DNA of 64,000 nucleotides from Candidatus Hodarchaeota archaeon (GTDB lineage: Archaea > Asgardarchaeota > Lokiarchaeia > Sigyniarchaeales > SOKP01), in assembly GCA_048887225.1 (NCBI GenBank), contig JBHLJY010000004.1:171895-235894 (forward strand). The letters run 5' to 3'. This document shows, one piece after another, positions 42,849 to 61,569 of the stretch (position 1 is the first letter of the stretch; the number at the start of each line of letters is the position of its first letter). Both the position numbers and the translations under genes were made by a program. The notes beneath the pieces are model-generated. The model saw only the letters and a program-made list of their open reading frames with translations. It had not been told where the DNA came from and made no database searches.

Positions 42849-43442
42849 CTAATCGTTATAATTGTAGCGTTGTTCTTTCCATGGATCTGCTTTATTAGAA
42901 TATCCCGCTCTTTCCCAATAACCTAATCTATCCTCCTTTAGAAAAGTAATTTTTACAACCCATTTTGCTGATTTATAGAAATATAAATCAGGGATAATTG
43001 GTCGGACAGGTCCCCCATGTTTATCATTTATGGGCTCTCCCTCATAAGATAGAGCTAAAATGCTATTTCCTTTTTTAATTGCCTCAATCGGAACTGTCGT
43101 TGTAAAATTATCATCTCCGCATAGAAATTCAACAAAATGAGCTGTTTCTTTTGGTTTTACAATATTCAAGAGTTTTTTAAAAGAAATCCCCCCCCATTTA
43201 GTATCGAATTTGCTCCAAGAAGTAACACAATGGATATCTACAATGACTTCTTTGTCTTGAAGTTTTTCAAGACTTGAAAGCGTAAAAGTCGTTGGATTTT
43301 CAACCTCTCCCTCAATATGTAGTTTATAATTCTCTCTGTTTATGCGTACGATTCGGCCTTTTTGGAGGACCGGAAATCTTTCTGTTATATGTTGACCTGG
43401 AGGTAATCTTGGTCTTTCTTCATTTTTAAAATTTTCATTCAT
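42849..43442 (-). CDS. Sulfite-oxidase-like molybdopterin-dependent oxidoreductase
   Basis: RLPPGQ, DIHCVTSWS, HGGPVR, YKSAKW, GYWERAGY. Confidence 0.92.
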   Translation of the reverse strand: MNENFKNEERPRLPPGQHITERFPVLQKGRIVRINRENYKLHIEGEVENPTTFTLSSLEKLQDKEVIVDIHCVTSWSKFDTKWGGISFKKLLNIVKPKETAHFVEFLCGDDNFTTTVPIEAIKKGNSILALSYEGEPINDKHGGPVRPIIPDLYFYKSAKWVVKITFLKEDRLGYWERAGYSNKADPWKEQRYNYND

Positions 43443-43576
43443 TAAAAATATAATTCTCTTTTATTGTATCTAAAATTATTAATTATTATACAATTATAAA
43501 ATTTTTAATTGAAGTGTTTATATTGACAGGAAAAAAAGGAAAGATACAATGCATAAATGATGAAATTCTAGAAAAG

Positions 43577-44836
43577 ATGAGTTTGAAGAATCGTAATAAA
43601 TTTATAGATAATAATTTGATTAGTGTTTTAAAGCCTGAACATTTTAATTTTCTACGCAAAACTCAGAGATTTTACGAAAGGTTTGAAAGTAAAAATAACA
43701 TAACCCACGATGAAGATTTTTATGATTGGATTCCAATAATGGGCAAGGAAGGTTTAATTAGTCGTGTTACCAGATTTGAAGATATTGGCTTAAATTACGA
43801 TCCTTATGGGATAACAATAGAGTTTCTAAGAATTTTGGCTACTGACTTATTTGACCCCCAAATGGCTATATTTGCTTAAAATCGCAATTCGCGAGCAAAA
43901 GCTATGGGTATGGGGGCTAGTGTGTTGGCAATAAACCCATTAACGCTCCATCACGAAAATATTGACATTAGATTGAAAGCCCTTAAAGAGTTAGTCACTG
44001 GAGAGAAAATTGGTTGTTGCTGTATTACAGAGCCAGAAAGAGGATCTGATGCTGTACATATGTTAACAACCTGCGATGAAAATGAAGATGGTGGTTATAC
44101 GATTAATGGACAAAAAATTTACCAGACGAATGGTCCTAAGGCAGACTGGGCTATTGTTTATGCATGCACCGAGAAAGATAATGGAAATACTATGGCACAA
44201 TTTTTAGTAAATTCTTCATGGGAGGGCTGGAATGTTGAAAGAGTAAATATCCCGTGGACTCCAAGGATCTTTATAGGGAAAGAAACCTTTAGAAATTTAA
44301 AAGTTCCTAAAGAATACGTATTAGGACCCCCAGGGATGGGTAGAGATCATCTTTTTGAAGGATTAAATTTAGAACGTTTAGGTATTGTTGCATTAAATCT
44401 CGCACAGGCATGGAATGCAATATCCCACGCAGTAATTTATGTAAACATGAGAAAACAATTTAATCAAGAAATTTTAAAGTTTCAAGGAGTTGGATTTCCT
44501 CTATCAGATCTATGGGCCAAAACTATGAATTTAACTTTAGCTTTTTTATACATTGCTCAAACCGTTGATGAAAAGATCGAAAAAGGTACTCTTACTAAAG
44601 AATTTAATTTGGCTCTTGTTGCATCTGCCTCTCAATTAAAATCTCAGAGCGCAAAGCTAAGTGAACGGGTTTGTTACGAATGTGCGAATTTAATGGGCGG
44701 CGCGGGAGCTTGTGATAATACATTAATGCACGATTTACTTGGAATCTCTAGAATTCAAGAAATGGGGGGAGGAACCCGTCAGATACAACAATACATAATG
44801 AGCCTAAGTTTGAGGCAGTTATTCAAAATGTTATAA
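43577..44836 (+). CDS. Acyl-CoA dehydrogenase, join(43577..43869,43906..44836), 407 aa after predicted splicing
   Basis: ITEPERGSD, INGQKIYQTNG, RKQF, GGGTRQIQ; the two track ORFs share a frame and are separated by a 36-nt insert containing TAA. Confidence 0.85.
43870..43905 (+). other. Putative bulge-helix-bulge mRNA intron
   Basis: Helix GGCT/AGCT, 3-nt bulges AT^A and AT^G, intron stem TTTGCT/AGCAAA, exon stem CCCCCA/TGGGGG. Confidence 0.7.
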
Positions 44837-44887: not shown

Positions 44888-45859
44888 TTATCTTTTTTTT
44901 AACGAAATTCCTAGGTTAAGATTTTCAAATAATTCGCTAAATCTATTTCTAATTGTAACTTCTGTAACCTGTGAAATTTTAGCAATTTTTCTTTGAGTTC
45001 TTCTTTCTTTACATAATATTGAAGCCGCATATATGGCAGCTGCGCAAACTCCAGTTGGACCTCTCCCAGAAGTTAAACCACGTAGTTCTGCTATTTTTAT
45101 TATTTTTTTGGATTTTTTATGGCACTGTTGAGATAAACCTAATTCACTTATAAAGCGTATGAGGAAATCCAAAGGTTTAGTAGGATTCAAATTTAATTTT
45201 AATTCTTTTGAAATAAATCTAAAAGACCGACCAATTTCTTTTTTATTGACGCGTGCAACTTCCGCAATTTCATTTAATGTTCTAGGTACATGGAACATTC
45301 TACAAGCTGCATATAAGCTTGCTGCAGCGACCCCTTCAATAGATCTTCCACGAATTAAATGTGCTTCTACTGCATCTCTGTATATTTTTGCTGAGCATTC
45401 TCGTAAATTCTTTTGAAGATCTAAATTTGAAGCCATACGATCTAATTCACTTAAGGCGAACGTTAAATTTCTTTCAGTTGCATCAGATACTCTAATACGG
45501 CTCTGCCATTTTCGGAGCCGATAAATTTGTGCTCTTAATTTAGCGGGTATTTCCTTTCCGAAGATATCACGATTTTTCCAGTCAATCATTGTACTTAGAC
45601 CTTTATCGTGTATCATGTATGTCATTGGTGCTCCTGTTCTTGTTCTCTTCTTTTTCTGATCAGCATCAAATGCTCGCCATTCTGGCCCGTGATCAATCCA
45701 TTTCTCGGATTTTATTAACCCACATTGTTCACATACCATGAAACCTCTATTTCCATCATAAGAGATAGTATTGCCACATTCTGAACAATGTTTTGATGAT
45801 AATCCATCATCATCATGTTTTTCTTCATGTAAAGTCTTAACTTCTTTCCAACTTGAAAT
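44888..45859 (-). CDS. tfb: Transcription initiation factor IIB, ATT start
   Basis: CSECG...CEQCG Zn ribbon is complete only when extended to ATT 45859 after AGGTG; GPEWRAF, cyclin repeats. Confidence 0.95.
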
Positions 45860-61238: not shown

Positions 61239-61317
61239 AATGTATAAACCAGTAAAGTTATAAAATATAATTATTTTTTTAACTTACAAAAAAAGTCAAA
61301 ATTTACTAATTATTAAT

Positions 61318-61389
61318 GCGCTCGTAGTCTAGGGGTTAGGATAGCGGGCTTCCAACCCGCCGACCCGGGTTCAATTCCCGGCGGGCGCA
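61318..61389 (+). tRNA. tRNA-Gly(TCC)
   Basis: Cloverleaf GCGCTCG/CGGGCGC, anticodon arm GCGGG-CT TCC AA-CCCGC, T arm CCGGG-TTCAATT-CCCGG. Confidence 0.97.
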
Positions 61390-61569
61390 TTCTTATATTC
61401 TATCTTAATTTTTCCAAGTTTTTTAAAACCTGAGATTTAAGTTGTAAATTCAATTTGATTAAAACTTAACAATAAAAGACGGAAAATTTTATATGATCTC
61501 TTTTCCTTTCTACCTTACGTTTACTAAGTTTTATTCTTACTTTTAGAAGAAGTTAAGAAATTCTTGTAT

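What the first reader, a model, noticed from the sequence alone, without database searches (positions are those of the whole stretch)
43855..43916. Candidate bulge-helix-bulge (tRNA-endonuclease type) intron in a metabolic mRNA of an Asgard archaeon
Seen: the acyl-CoA dehydrogenase is split into two same-frame ORFs by a 36-nt insert with an in-frame TAA. The RNA folds into an archaeal splice motif. It has a 4-bp helix GGCU(43864-67)/AGCU(43900-03) and 3-nt bulges AUA(43868-70) and AUG(43904-06) on opposite strands. The intron stem is UUUGCU/AGCAAA plus CGC/GCG, and the exon-exon stem is CCCCCA/UGGGGG. Established: EndA cuts after the second nt of each bulge and RtcB ligates. Applying that rule removes exactly 43870-43905 and yields ...DPQMAMGMGASVLA..., an uninterrupted 407-aa ACAD-sized protein. 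Validated archaeal mRNA introns of this type are few (crenarchaeal cbf5 is the classic case). Inference: this is a spliced, possibly regulatory protein-gene intron in the lineage closest to eukaryotes, reminiscent of HAC1/XBP1 non-spliceosomal splicing. Caveats: the outer stem next to the 3' bulge is imperfect, and the insert is flanked by a GCTAT direct repeat, so an inactivating micro-insertion is the alternative.
Basis: partly seen in the sequence, partly recalled or inferred. Interest (0 to 1): 0.93.

Follow-up and report, generated by a model that had tools for sequence, protein, structure and literature searches.

The report
tRNA-type intron in Asgard metabolic gene
A 36-base insert with a stop codon interrupts an otherwise healthy acyl-CoA dehydrogenase gene of an Asgard (Lokiarchaeia-type) archaeon; it has the conserved RNA shape that the tRNA-splicing enzyme cuts, so the messenger RNA is very probably spliced, which published work documents in archaea only for the cbf5 gene.

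Summary
Confirmed. At 43870-43905 a 36-nt insert with an in-frame TAA splits an otherwise intact 428-codon acyl-CoA-dehydrogenase-family gene of a Lokiarchaeia-type Asgard MAG. Seven further alleles from independent metagenomes or MAGs carry a homologous 34-36-nt insert at exactly this site, and two of those lengths shift the frame. About 200 homologues lack it precisely, including a 96%-identical sister. Both exons are under strong purifying selection (dN/dS 0.03-0.06). The RNA fold is kept, with two compensatory pairs: a 5' 3-nt bulge, a 4-bp central helix, an intron stem and a 6-bp exon-exon clamp. Only the EndA cut rule restores the invariant Met codon in 7 of 8 alleles. Helix-forming synonymous bases are fixed in intron-bearing alleles and decay after intron loss. 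The 3' cut site lies in a loop, a relaxed bulge-helix-loop form. That fits the two-subunit EndA and the RtcB encoded in this genome. The uL11 and rtcB genes of the same genome carry canonical BHB inserts. It is therefore a tRNA-type mRNA intron, very probably spliced. No RNA data could be obtained. A regulatory role is untested, and repeated precise losses suggest the intron is dispensable. This scan has noted the same class in other genes and other Asgard genomes.

The parts
43514..43869 (+). Exon 1 of the acyl-CoA dehydrogenase-family gene. It starts at a GTG and ends with the first two bases (AU) of the split Met codon.
   Evidence: ORF list. Homologues start at the same position. dN/dS in exon 1 is 0.03-0.05 between intron-bearing alleles.
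43870..43905 (+). 36-nt BHB-type (relaxed, bulge-helix-loop) intron.
   Evidence: It is absent precisely from the 96%-identical orthologue L002. Homologous 34-36-nt inserts lie at the same site in L023 and L183-L188.
43877..43879 (+). In-frame TAA that ends translation of the unspliced mRNA after 121 codons.
43906..44836 (+). Exon 2. It begins with the G that completes the Met codon, holds the ACAD middle and C-terminal domains, and includes the stop codon.
   Evidence: Pfam PF02770 and PF00441. PDB ACAD hits align from about residue 90 onward. dN/dS is about 0.05.
43855..43860 (+). 5' strand of the exon-exon clamp helix (CCCCCA). It pairs with 43911-43916.
   Evidence: Predicted by MFE and RNAalifold. 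Kept in 6 of 8 alleles, with one U.G variant. Both halves occur together in 0 of 162 distinct intron-less junctions.
43911..43916 (+). 3' strand of the exon-exon clamp helix (UGGGGG).
43864..43867 (+). Central 4-bp helix H, 5' strand (GGCU, exonic). It pairs with 43900-43903.
   Evidence: Invariant in 8 of 8 intron-bearing alleles. GGCT occurs at this codon position in only 2 of 162 intron-less junctions, both recent losers of the intron.
43868..43870 (+). 5' 3-nt bulge AUA. The predicted cut lies between 43869 and 43870.
   Evidence: Predicted as a 3-nt bulge by RNAalifold and by the MFE of 5 alleles. Invariant.
43871..43876 (+). Intron stem h', 5' strand (UUUGCU). It pairs with 43894-43899.
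   Evidence: G-C becomes A-U in L023 and C-G becomes U.G in L184 and L185.
43882..43894 (+). Apical hairpin of the intron (UCGC, loop, GCGA).
   Evidence: G-C becomes A-U as a compensatory change in L188.
43894..43899 (+). Intron stem h', 3' strand (AGCAAA).
43900..43903 (+). Central helix H, 3' strand (AGCU, intronic).
   Evidence: Invariant in 8 of 8 alleles.
43904..43906 (+). 3' cut-site triplet A-N-G. The predicted cut lies between 43905 and 43906. It sits in an internal loop, not a closed bulge.
   Evidence: The triplet is AUG, AAG or AGG among alleles, and the third base is always G, which completes the Met codon. Loop geometry.

Best explanation
The 36 nt at 43870-43905 are an archaeal tRNA-type (bulge-helix-bulge family) intron inside a protein-coding mRNA. 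In the pre-mRNA, exon bases GGCU pair with intron bases AGCU to form the 4-bp central helix. A 3-nt bulge (AUA) followed by a 5-6-bp intron stem presents the 5' cut site. The 3' cut site (A-N|G) lies in a loop that is held in place by a 6-bp G-C-rich exon-exon clamp. The genome's two-subunit (alpha-beta)2 splicing endonuclease cuts after the second base of each triplet. RtcB joins the exons, rebuilding the AU|G Met codon and an uninterrupted 428-aa acyl-CoA-dehydrogenase-family protein. The intron is probably released as a small circle. Unspliced mRNA can only give a 121-aa fragment. Shown here: the anatomy, its conservation and covariation, selection on both exons, and the presence of the enzymes. 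Inferred: the cleavage and ligation themselves. The intron was most likely gained once in the ancestor of a genus-level clade and then lost precisely at least four times. It behaves as a tolerated, dispensable passenger whose RNA shape is under selection while it is present.
For: (1) Eight alleles from different assemblies carry a homologous insert at the same site: G000, L023, L183 (an NCBI MAG) and L184-L188 (ENA and JGI). Lengths are 36, 35 and 34 nt, so two alleles are frameshifted and all contain stops, yet both flanking ORFs are intact in all eight. (2) dN/dS between intron-bearing alleles is 0.03-0.06 in exon 1 and in exon 2, with dS from 0.8 to saturation. (3) About 200 homologues have no insert and read DPQx[AT]M[GA] without a gap (206 junctions). 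The 96%-identical orthologue lacks exactly these 36 nt. (4) In 7 of 8 alleles the flanking repeat is only GCTA, and only the cut rule 'after base 2 of each triplet' restores the invariant Met; any other register gives K or R. (5) For the structure, 98% of pair cells are standard pairs against 27-52% when partners are slid, two pairs show compensatory double changes, and there are further G-U variants. RNAalifold finds the same helices on its own, and the MFE of 5 alleles is this fold. (6) The exon bases that form the helices co-vary with intron presence. GGCT is present in 8/8 intron-bearing against 2/162 intron-less junctions, and both clamp halves in 6/8 against 0/162. The sister clade that lost the intron has three substitutions within the 12 clamp bases. 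(7) The machinery is present. There is an EndA catalytic paralogue with Tyr/His/Lys, closest to the Aeropyrum, Sulfolobus and Pyrobaculum catalytic subunits. There is a second paralogue without the His, and one RtcB. Asgard EndA is reported as (alpha-beta)2 with the broad-specificity L1 loop (PMC5829648). (8) The same genome has canonical BHB inserts in uL11 and in rtcB, which I checked myself. Their removal by the same rule restores invariant motifs.
Against: The 3' site is not a canonical 3-nt bulge, because next to it there is at most one G.U pair before the loop. In G000 itself a competing fold is 5 kcal/mol more stable than the BHB fold. L188 has a weak clamp, with 4 of 6 pairs. Covariation rests on two double changes in eight related sequences: 7 of 500 shuffles reach it, which is not a probability. 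The high conservation of the intron could partly reflect recent spread by recombination rather than constraint.
Confidence: 0.85

Rival explanations
1. Split gene: the insert is a short intergenic spacer, and the enzyme is made as two polypeptides (121 aa ending ...AIFA, and about 308-310 aa starting at a nearby ATG) that assemble after translation.
For: An in-frame ATG lies within 5 nt of the junction in all eight alleles, and gene callers annotate two ORFs. Purifying selection on both parts would also be expected for a split enzyme.
Against: The break lies inside the N-terminal helical domain, not at a domain border: exon 2 residue 6-9 aligns with ACAD residue about 90-100. It also lies in the middle of a motif that is contiguous in about 200 homologues. 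A spacer has no reason to keep a co-varying hairpin, a 4-bp exon-intron helix, an exon-exon clamp or a split AU|G codon. It would also not be deleted to the exact base at least four times. No Shine-Dalgarno-like motif is evident in the insert (by eye).
Confidence: 0.05
2. Translational bypassing (as in phage T4 gene 60 or the yeast mitochondrial 'byp' elements): the ribosome takes off at GCU (43865-67), slides over the hairpin and lands on the matching GCU (43901-03).
For: Identical take-off and landing codons (GCU) flank a stable hairpin in all eight alleles. In G000 the hop would give the same protein as splicing.
Against: After landing, the next codon would be AAG or AGG in 7 of 8 alleles. 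That would put K or R where about 200 homologues have an invariant Met. The take-off codon is followed by AUA, not by a stop, unlike gene 60 (from my own knowledge of that system). The exon-exon clamp and its co-variation with insert presence have no role in hopping. Bypassing has not been described in archaea to my knowledge, whereas the BHB machinery is encoded here.
Confidence: 0.03
3. Inactivating micro-insertion: the gene is a young pseudogene, or the insert is the footprint of a small mobile DNA element.
For: The insert brings a stop codon and G000 has a 5-nt flanking repeat. G000 has about a dozen ACAD paralogues that could cover a loss. A clearly degraded copy of this gene exists elsewhere (L192).
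Against: Eight alleles are separated by saturated synonymous divergence, yet they keep both exons intact with dN/dS about 0.05 and no second lesion. There is no other copy of the insert in the genome by BLAST. A covariance model finds none in 40 relatives at E below 0.01. The repeat is only 4 nt in the other alleles.
Confidence: 0.03
4. Assembly or sequencing artefact.
For: The genome is a MAG of 49 contigs, and reads could not be inspected.
Against: Homologous inserts occur in eight assemblies from NCBI, ENA and JGI projects, with their own substitutions.
Confidence: 0.01

Closest known systems
cbf5 (pseudouridine synthase) pre-mRNA intron of Crenarchaeota (Yokobori et al. 2009, PMC2738675, and the earlier work cited there)
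   Same: It is a short BHB-type intron inside a protein-coding gene, often with a relaxed cleavage motif. It is attributed to a hetero-oligomeric splicing endonuclease of broad specificity. It shows patchy presence, with gain and loss among close relatives.
   Different: The gene differs (a metabolic ACAD-family flavoprotein, not an RNA-modification enzyme) and so does the phylum (Asgard/Promethearchaeota, not Crenarchaeota). No homology between the introns is apparent. Splicing is shown experimentally for cbf5 and is only inferred here.
Non-canonical archaeal tRNA introns with relaxed BHB (HBh' / bulge-helix-loop) motifs, cut by (alpha-beta)2 or epsilon2 EndA (PMC5829648, PMC3241643)
   Same: It shares the 4-bp central helix, a 3-nt bulge with the cut after base 2, one site in a loop rather than a closed bulge, and a size within the 11-175-nt range of tRNA introns. 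The predicted enzymes are the same. This genome's tRNA genes are heavily interrupted.
   Different: The host RNA is an mRNA, so the exon halves of the helices must be written in synonymous codon positions. This is visible here as codon choices that track intron presence.
HAC1 / XBP1 unconventional mRNA splicing in eukaryotes
   Same: It is spliceosome-independent removal of a short intron from an mRNA by an endonuclease that leaves ends for a tRNA ligase (RtcB in animals). The unspliced form gives a truncated or different protein.
   Different: The nuclease there is IRE1, which recognises twin stem-loops and acts as a stress-regulated switch. Here the motif is BHB-like, the expected nuclease is EndA, and nothing indicates regulation. 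The resemblance is by mechanism class only and was not tested.
Programmed translational bypassing (T4 gene 60; mitochondrial byps)
   Same: A short stop-containing insert with a hairpin lies between matched codons in an otherwise intact ORF.
   Different: Bypassing would give the wrong residue in 7 of 8 alleles. There is no stop directly after the take-off codon. The exon-exon clamp would be unexplained.

Membership tests
Archaeal BHB-family intron (EndA-cut, RtcB-joined), relaxed HBh'/bulge-helix-loop form | A 4-bp central helix with a 3-nt bulge on its 5' strand, followed by an intron helix | tested here: met
   GGCU/AGCU, AUA and a 5-6-bp stem are present in 8/8 alleles. RNAalifold and the MFE folds predict them.
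Archaeal BHB-family intron (EndA-cut, RtcB-joined), relaxed HBh'/bulge-helix-loop form | The second cut site lies four base pairs away on the other strand, in a bulge or loop, and cuts after base 2 of each triplet give a functional product | tested here: met
   A-N|G follows AGCU in 8/8 alleles. The rule restores the ORF and the invariant Met in all eight, and no other register does so in seven.
Strict hBHBh' motif (canonical tRNA 37/38 type) | The 3' 3-nt bulge is closed by at least two base pairs of an adjacent outer helix | tested here: not met
   Only one G.U pair (two in L023) can follow the triplet. The 6-bp clamp begins after a 2-nt / 6-nt internal loop.
Archaeal BHB-family intron (EndA-cut, RtcB-joined), relaxed HBh'/bulge-helix-loop form | Helices are maintained by compensatory change | tested here: met
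   There are two pairs with double changes plus three G-U variants, and 98% of cells are paired against 27-52% when slid. The support is modest, because the eight sequences are related.
Archaeal BHB-family intron (EndA-cut, RtcB-joined), relaxed HBh'/bulge-helix-loop form | The host encodes a splicing endonuclease able to cut relaxed motifs, and the RtcB ligase | tested here: met
   Two EndA paralogues are present, one catalytic and one lacking the His, and RtcB is present. The broad-specificity (alpha-beta)2 type with the L1 loop is reported for Asgard (PMC5829648). I did not check the L1 loop itself in this protein.
Archaeal BHB-family intron (EndA-cut, RtcB-joined), relaxed HBh'/bulge-helix-loop form | A spliced junction and the excised (circular) intron are observed in RNA | not testable with these tools
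Translational bypass element | Matched take-off and landing codons, with a product that matches the conserved protein | tested here: not met
   GCU/GCU are matched, but the codon after landing is AAG or AGG in 7 of 8 alleles where homologues have Met.
IRE1-type (HAC1/XBP1) splice sites | Twin 7-nt-loop hairpins with a conserved cut-site consensus, and an IRE1 kinase-RNase | not tested
   This is a resemblance of outcome only. I made no search for IRE1 or for the loop consensus.

The most novel reading that the evidence does not exclude
The intron may not be a neutral passenger but a gate. ACAD expression would then depend on spare EndA/RtcB capacity, together with that of the other intron-bearing genes of this genome, including uL11 and rtcB itself. 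Because rtcB carries its own intron, this would form a feedback loop. The element would spread or be erased between alleles by short recombination tracts that carry its flanks, which would amount to a homing-like dynamic without a homing enzyme.
Probability: 0.1. Interest if true: 0.92.

Novelty: new member of a known kind. Interest (0 to 1): 0.8.

Why it matters
In the papers I could search, tRNA-type introns inside archaeal coding sequences are documented only for cbf5 of Crenarchaeota. This case sits in an ordinary metabolic gene of the archaeal lineage closest to eukaryotes. It has unusually complete comparative support: eight alleles, presence/absence polymorphism down to near-identical sequences, and exon codons visibly shaped by the splice motif. 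The same genome also has inserts in uL11 and rtcB. Together these suggest that these archaea routinely translate mRNAs that must first be cut and rejoined. That bears on how intron-bearing genes were tolerated before the nucleus existed. It also has a practical consequence, because annotation pipelines currently call such genes as two fragments or as pseudogenes.

Tried and rejected
Close intron-less alleles from Logan and JGI (L196, L197) belong to the L002 loss clade with decayed clamp bases, and they are not cDNA evidence. (2) Genome-wide census. A scan for H(4 bp) plus an inner stem of 4 bp or more, with ORF restoration, gave thousands of hits. There was no excess for the correct cut rule over rules shifted by 1 or 2 nt (2271 against 2300 and 2328). 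The scan is swamped by ordinary same-strand gene junctions and cannot count introns. (3) Other copies of the insert. BLAST found none in G000. An exact pattern search found none in genome contigs. A covariance model of intron plus H found only the self hit, and nothing below E 0.01 in 40 relatives. (4) The truncated proteins P0009, P0010 and P0011 are not further intron positions. L192 is a copy with an internal deletion, and L191 and L193 are short or chimeric contigs. (5) My first mapping of two earlier notes to contig coordinates was wrong and was corrected for uL11. I did not confirm the HypE-like case; my scan found only a different 44-nt candidate there. (6) An alternative register of the central helix (UGGC/GCUA) would remove 38 nt and break the frame, so I rejected it by inspection.

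Full report
OBSERVATION. The window holds two same-frame ORFs on the plus strand, 43514-43879 (121 aa) and 43904-44836 (310 aa). Read through, they give one protein with Pfam acyl-CoA dehydrogenase middle and C-terminal domains. This protein falls below every NCBIfam equivalog cut-off, so the substrate is unknown. Removing 43870-43905 yields an open 428-codon frame from the GTG at 43514. That is the length and start of the closest full-length homologues.

WHAT RELATIVES SHOW. The window is G000:C4:171895-235894, in a 98%-complete MAG. Relatives' record titles name Promethearchaeota/Promethearchaeia, which are Asgard archaea of the Lokiarchaeia type. All 40 related species representatives have orthologues without stops. 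The closest (L002, 96% aa) lacks exactly the 36 nt. Among 206 homologous junctions from genomes and metagenomes, the motif DPQx[AT]M[GA] is contiguous.

One metagenome contig (L023) has a 35-nt insert at the same site. I then searched the protein collection with the exon-1 ORF at 'near' lengths, which selects truncated forms. This found six more N-terminal ORFs ending ...MAIF[AV]. Their contigs (L183-L188, from NCBI, ENA and JGI) all carry an insert there, followed by the rest of the gene. The insert lengths are 36 nt in six alleles, 35 nt in L023 and 34 nt in L188. The in-frame state in G000 is therefore incidental, and two alleles are frameshifted.

IS THE GENE ALIVE? Between intron-bearing alleles, dN/dS is 0.03-0.06 in each exon separately, while dS runs from 0.8 to saturation. 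None of the eight has a second lesion. This excludes a pseudogene. The eight independent assemblies exclude an artefact.

THE RNA SHAPE. On the 8-sequence alignment, 98% of the pair cells of the proposed structure are standard pairs, against 27-52% when partners are slid by 1-3 columns. Two pairs carry compensatory double changes: G-C to A-U in the intron stem of L023 and in the apical stem of L188. There are also C-G to U.G changes in L184, L185 and L186. RNAalifold, given no hint, returns the same 6-bp exon-exon clamp. It extends the 4-bp central helix by a U-A pair, and it returns the 3-nt AUA bulge and a 5-bp intron stem with an apical hairpin. The single-sequence MFE of five alleles is this fold. 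In G000 a competing pairing is 5 kcal/mol better.

The 5' site is canonical. The 3' site is not, because the triplet A-N-G lies in a 2-nt / 6-nt internal loop with at most one or two G.U pairs beside it. The motif therefore fails the strict hBHBh' definition and fits the relaxed HBh'/bulge-helix-loop class. That class is cut only by (alpha-beta)2 and epsilon2 endonucleases (PMC5829648). The cbf5 mRNA introns also 'frequently' show it (PMC2738675).

THE CUT RULE. In G000 a GCTAT repeat makes six deletion registers equivalent, so that allele cannot test the rule. In the other seven alleles the 3' triplet is AAG or AGG. There, only cutting after base 2 of each triplet joins AU to G and restores the Met that about 200 homologues keep. 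Every other register gives K or R. This also argues against ribosomal hopping from GCU to GCU, which would decode AAG or AGG next.

EXONS ADAPTED TO THE INTRON. All eight intron-bearing alleles have GGCT at the H position, which needs a codon ending in G followed by GCT for Ala. Only 2 of 162 distinct intron-less junctions have it, and both lie in the clade that recently lost the intron. Both clamp halves occur together in 6/8 intron-bearing and 0/162 intron-less junctions.

The L002/L140/L196/L197 group lost the intron. It differs from G000 by about 5% overall, but by 3 of the 12 clamp bases. Third-position differences within -24..+12 of the junction are 0.24 against 0.55 elsewhere in intron-bearing pairs. 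In intron-less pairs of the same clade they are 0.35 against 0.50. This is a modest effect, partly due to Met codons.

HISTORY. In an IQ-TREE of 45 homologues and a FastTree with all eight alleles, the intron-bearing alleles fall in one genus-level clade. They are interleaved with intron-less ones and tend to branch at the base of each subclade. The simplest reading is one gain and at least four precise losses. I did not test this formally.

L186 (with intron) and L003 (without) are 96% identical over 531 nt. However, 14 of their 22 differences lie between -41 and +9 of the junction. The L003 patch resembles the intron-less L005, and the L186 patch resembles the intron-bearing L188. Short recombination tracts therefore appear to move the presence or absence state between alleles.

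MACHINERY AND CONTEXT. The genome has two EndA paralogues of about 200 aa. One has the Tyr/His/Lys residues and is closest to the crenarchaeal catalytic subunits (3p1z_B, 3ajv_B, 2cv8, 2zyz_B). The other lacks the His. RtcB is present, and its gene is itself split by a 29-nt canonical BHB insert. Removing that insert by the rule restores ...SPGGVGYDINCG....

Its second insert (28 nt) is a textbook hBHBh'. A distant ACAD paralogue in another genus carries a canonical 30-nt BHB insert ten codons downstream of this site. ARAGORN finds many tRNA genes with introns at unusual positions. This fits a recent preprint on heavily interrupted Asgard tRNA genes, which also reports two EndA paralogues in most Asgard genomes.

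KNOWN OR NEW. Searches of the held literature found mRNA BHB introns only for cbf5, and nothing on protein-gene introns in Asgard archaea. The mechanism class is known, so this is a new member of that class in a new gene and phylum. Other notes of this scan report the same class in this genome and in many other Asgard genomes. Apart from uL11 and this genome's rtcB, I did not check them.

LIMITS. Splicing is inferred, not seen. A regulatory role is untested, and the repeated precise losses suggest the intron is dispensable. My attempt at a genome-wide count failed for a stated reason.

Noticed in passing
G000:C13:33458-33486 (outside the window; locus L189/L190): The only rtcB gene (the RNA ligase expected to join BHB-cut exons) is itself split by a 29-nt frameshifting insert. 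The insert has a canonical BHB: H UUGG/CCAA, bulges AUA and AAA, and an 8-bp intron stem. Removal by the rule restores the invariant ...SPGGVGYDINCG... motif, so making new ligase would need ligase already present.
   Followed up: partly
G000:C4:65567-65594, minus strand (outside the window), plus a second insert about 60 nt upstream in the same gene: The ribosomal protein uL11 gene is interrupted twice near its N-terminus. The 28-nt insert is a textbook hBHBh' (7-bp outer helix, GGCU/GGCU, bulges GUA and UAA, 8-bp inner stem), and its removal gives ...GGPPIGPAVGPTGINIKDV.... I did not analyse the other, roughly 36-nt insert further.
   Followed up: partly
L195:1099-1128, minus strand (= G018:C2:21448-21477): A distant ACAD paralogue (about 37% aa identity) in another genus has a 30-nt in-frame, stop-containing insert ten codons downstream of the window's site. 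It has a canonical BHB (outer GGAA/UUCC, H UCCU/AGGA, bulges ACA and AAG). Removal gives GNPTFQHGE, matching the intron-less L194.
   Followed up: yes
L186 versus L003, junction region (-41 to +9): Two alleles are 96% identical over 531 nt, one with and one without the intron, and 14 of their 22 differences lie in a 50-nt patch across the junction. This suggests a short recombination or gene-conversion tract that adds or erases the intron together with its flanks.
   Followed up: partly
G000 whole genome (ARAGORN); in the window, tRNA-Gly(TCC) at about 61317-61390: ARAGORN finds only 32 tRNA genes in a 98%-complete genome, many with introns at non-canonical positions and one with a 268-nt intron. 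The tRNA set is probably heavily interrupted and under-detected.
   Followed up: no
L192:990-1060: One metagenome copy of this ACAD (P0010) lacks about 45 codons after the DPQ motif and runs into a stop. It is a truly degraded copy or a misassembly, and it shows what decay looks like in this family, in contrast to the eight intron-bearing alleles.
   Followed up: partly
window 42849-43442 (-) and 44888-45739 (-): The gene neighbours are conserved around the intron-bearing alleles in other contigs (L183, L185, L187). They are a molybdopterin oxidoreductase-like ORF upstream and a TFIIB homologue downstream on the other strand. This confirms that these contigs are orthologous loci.
   Followed up: no
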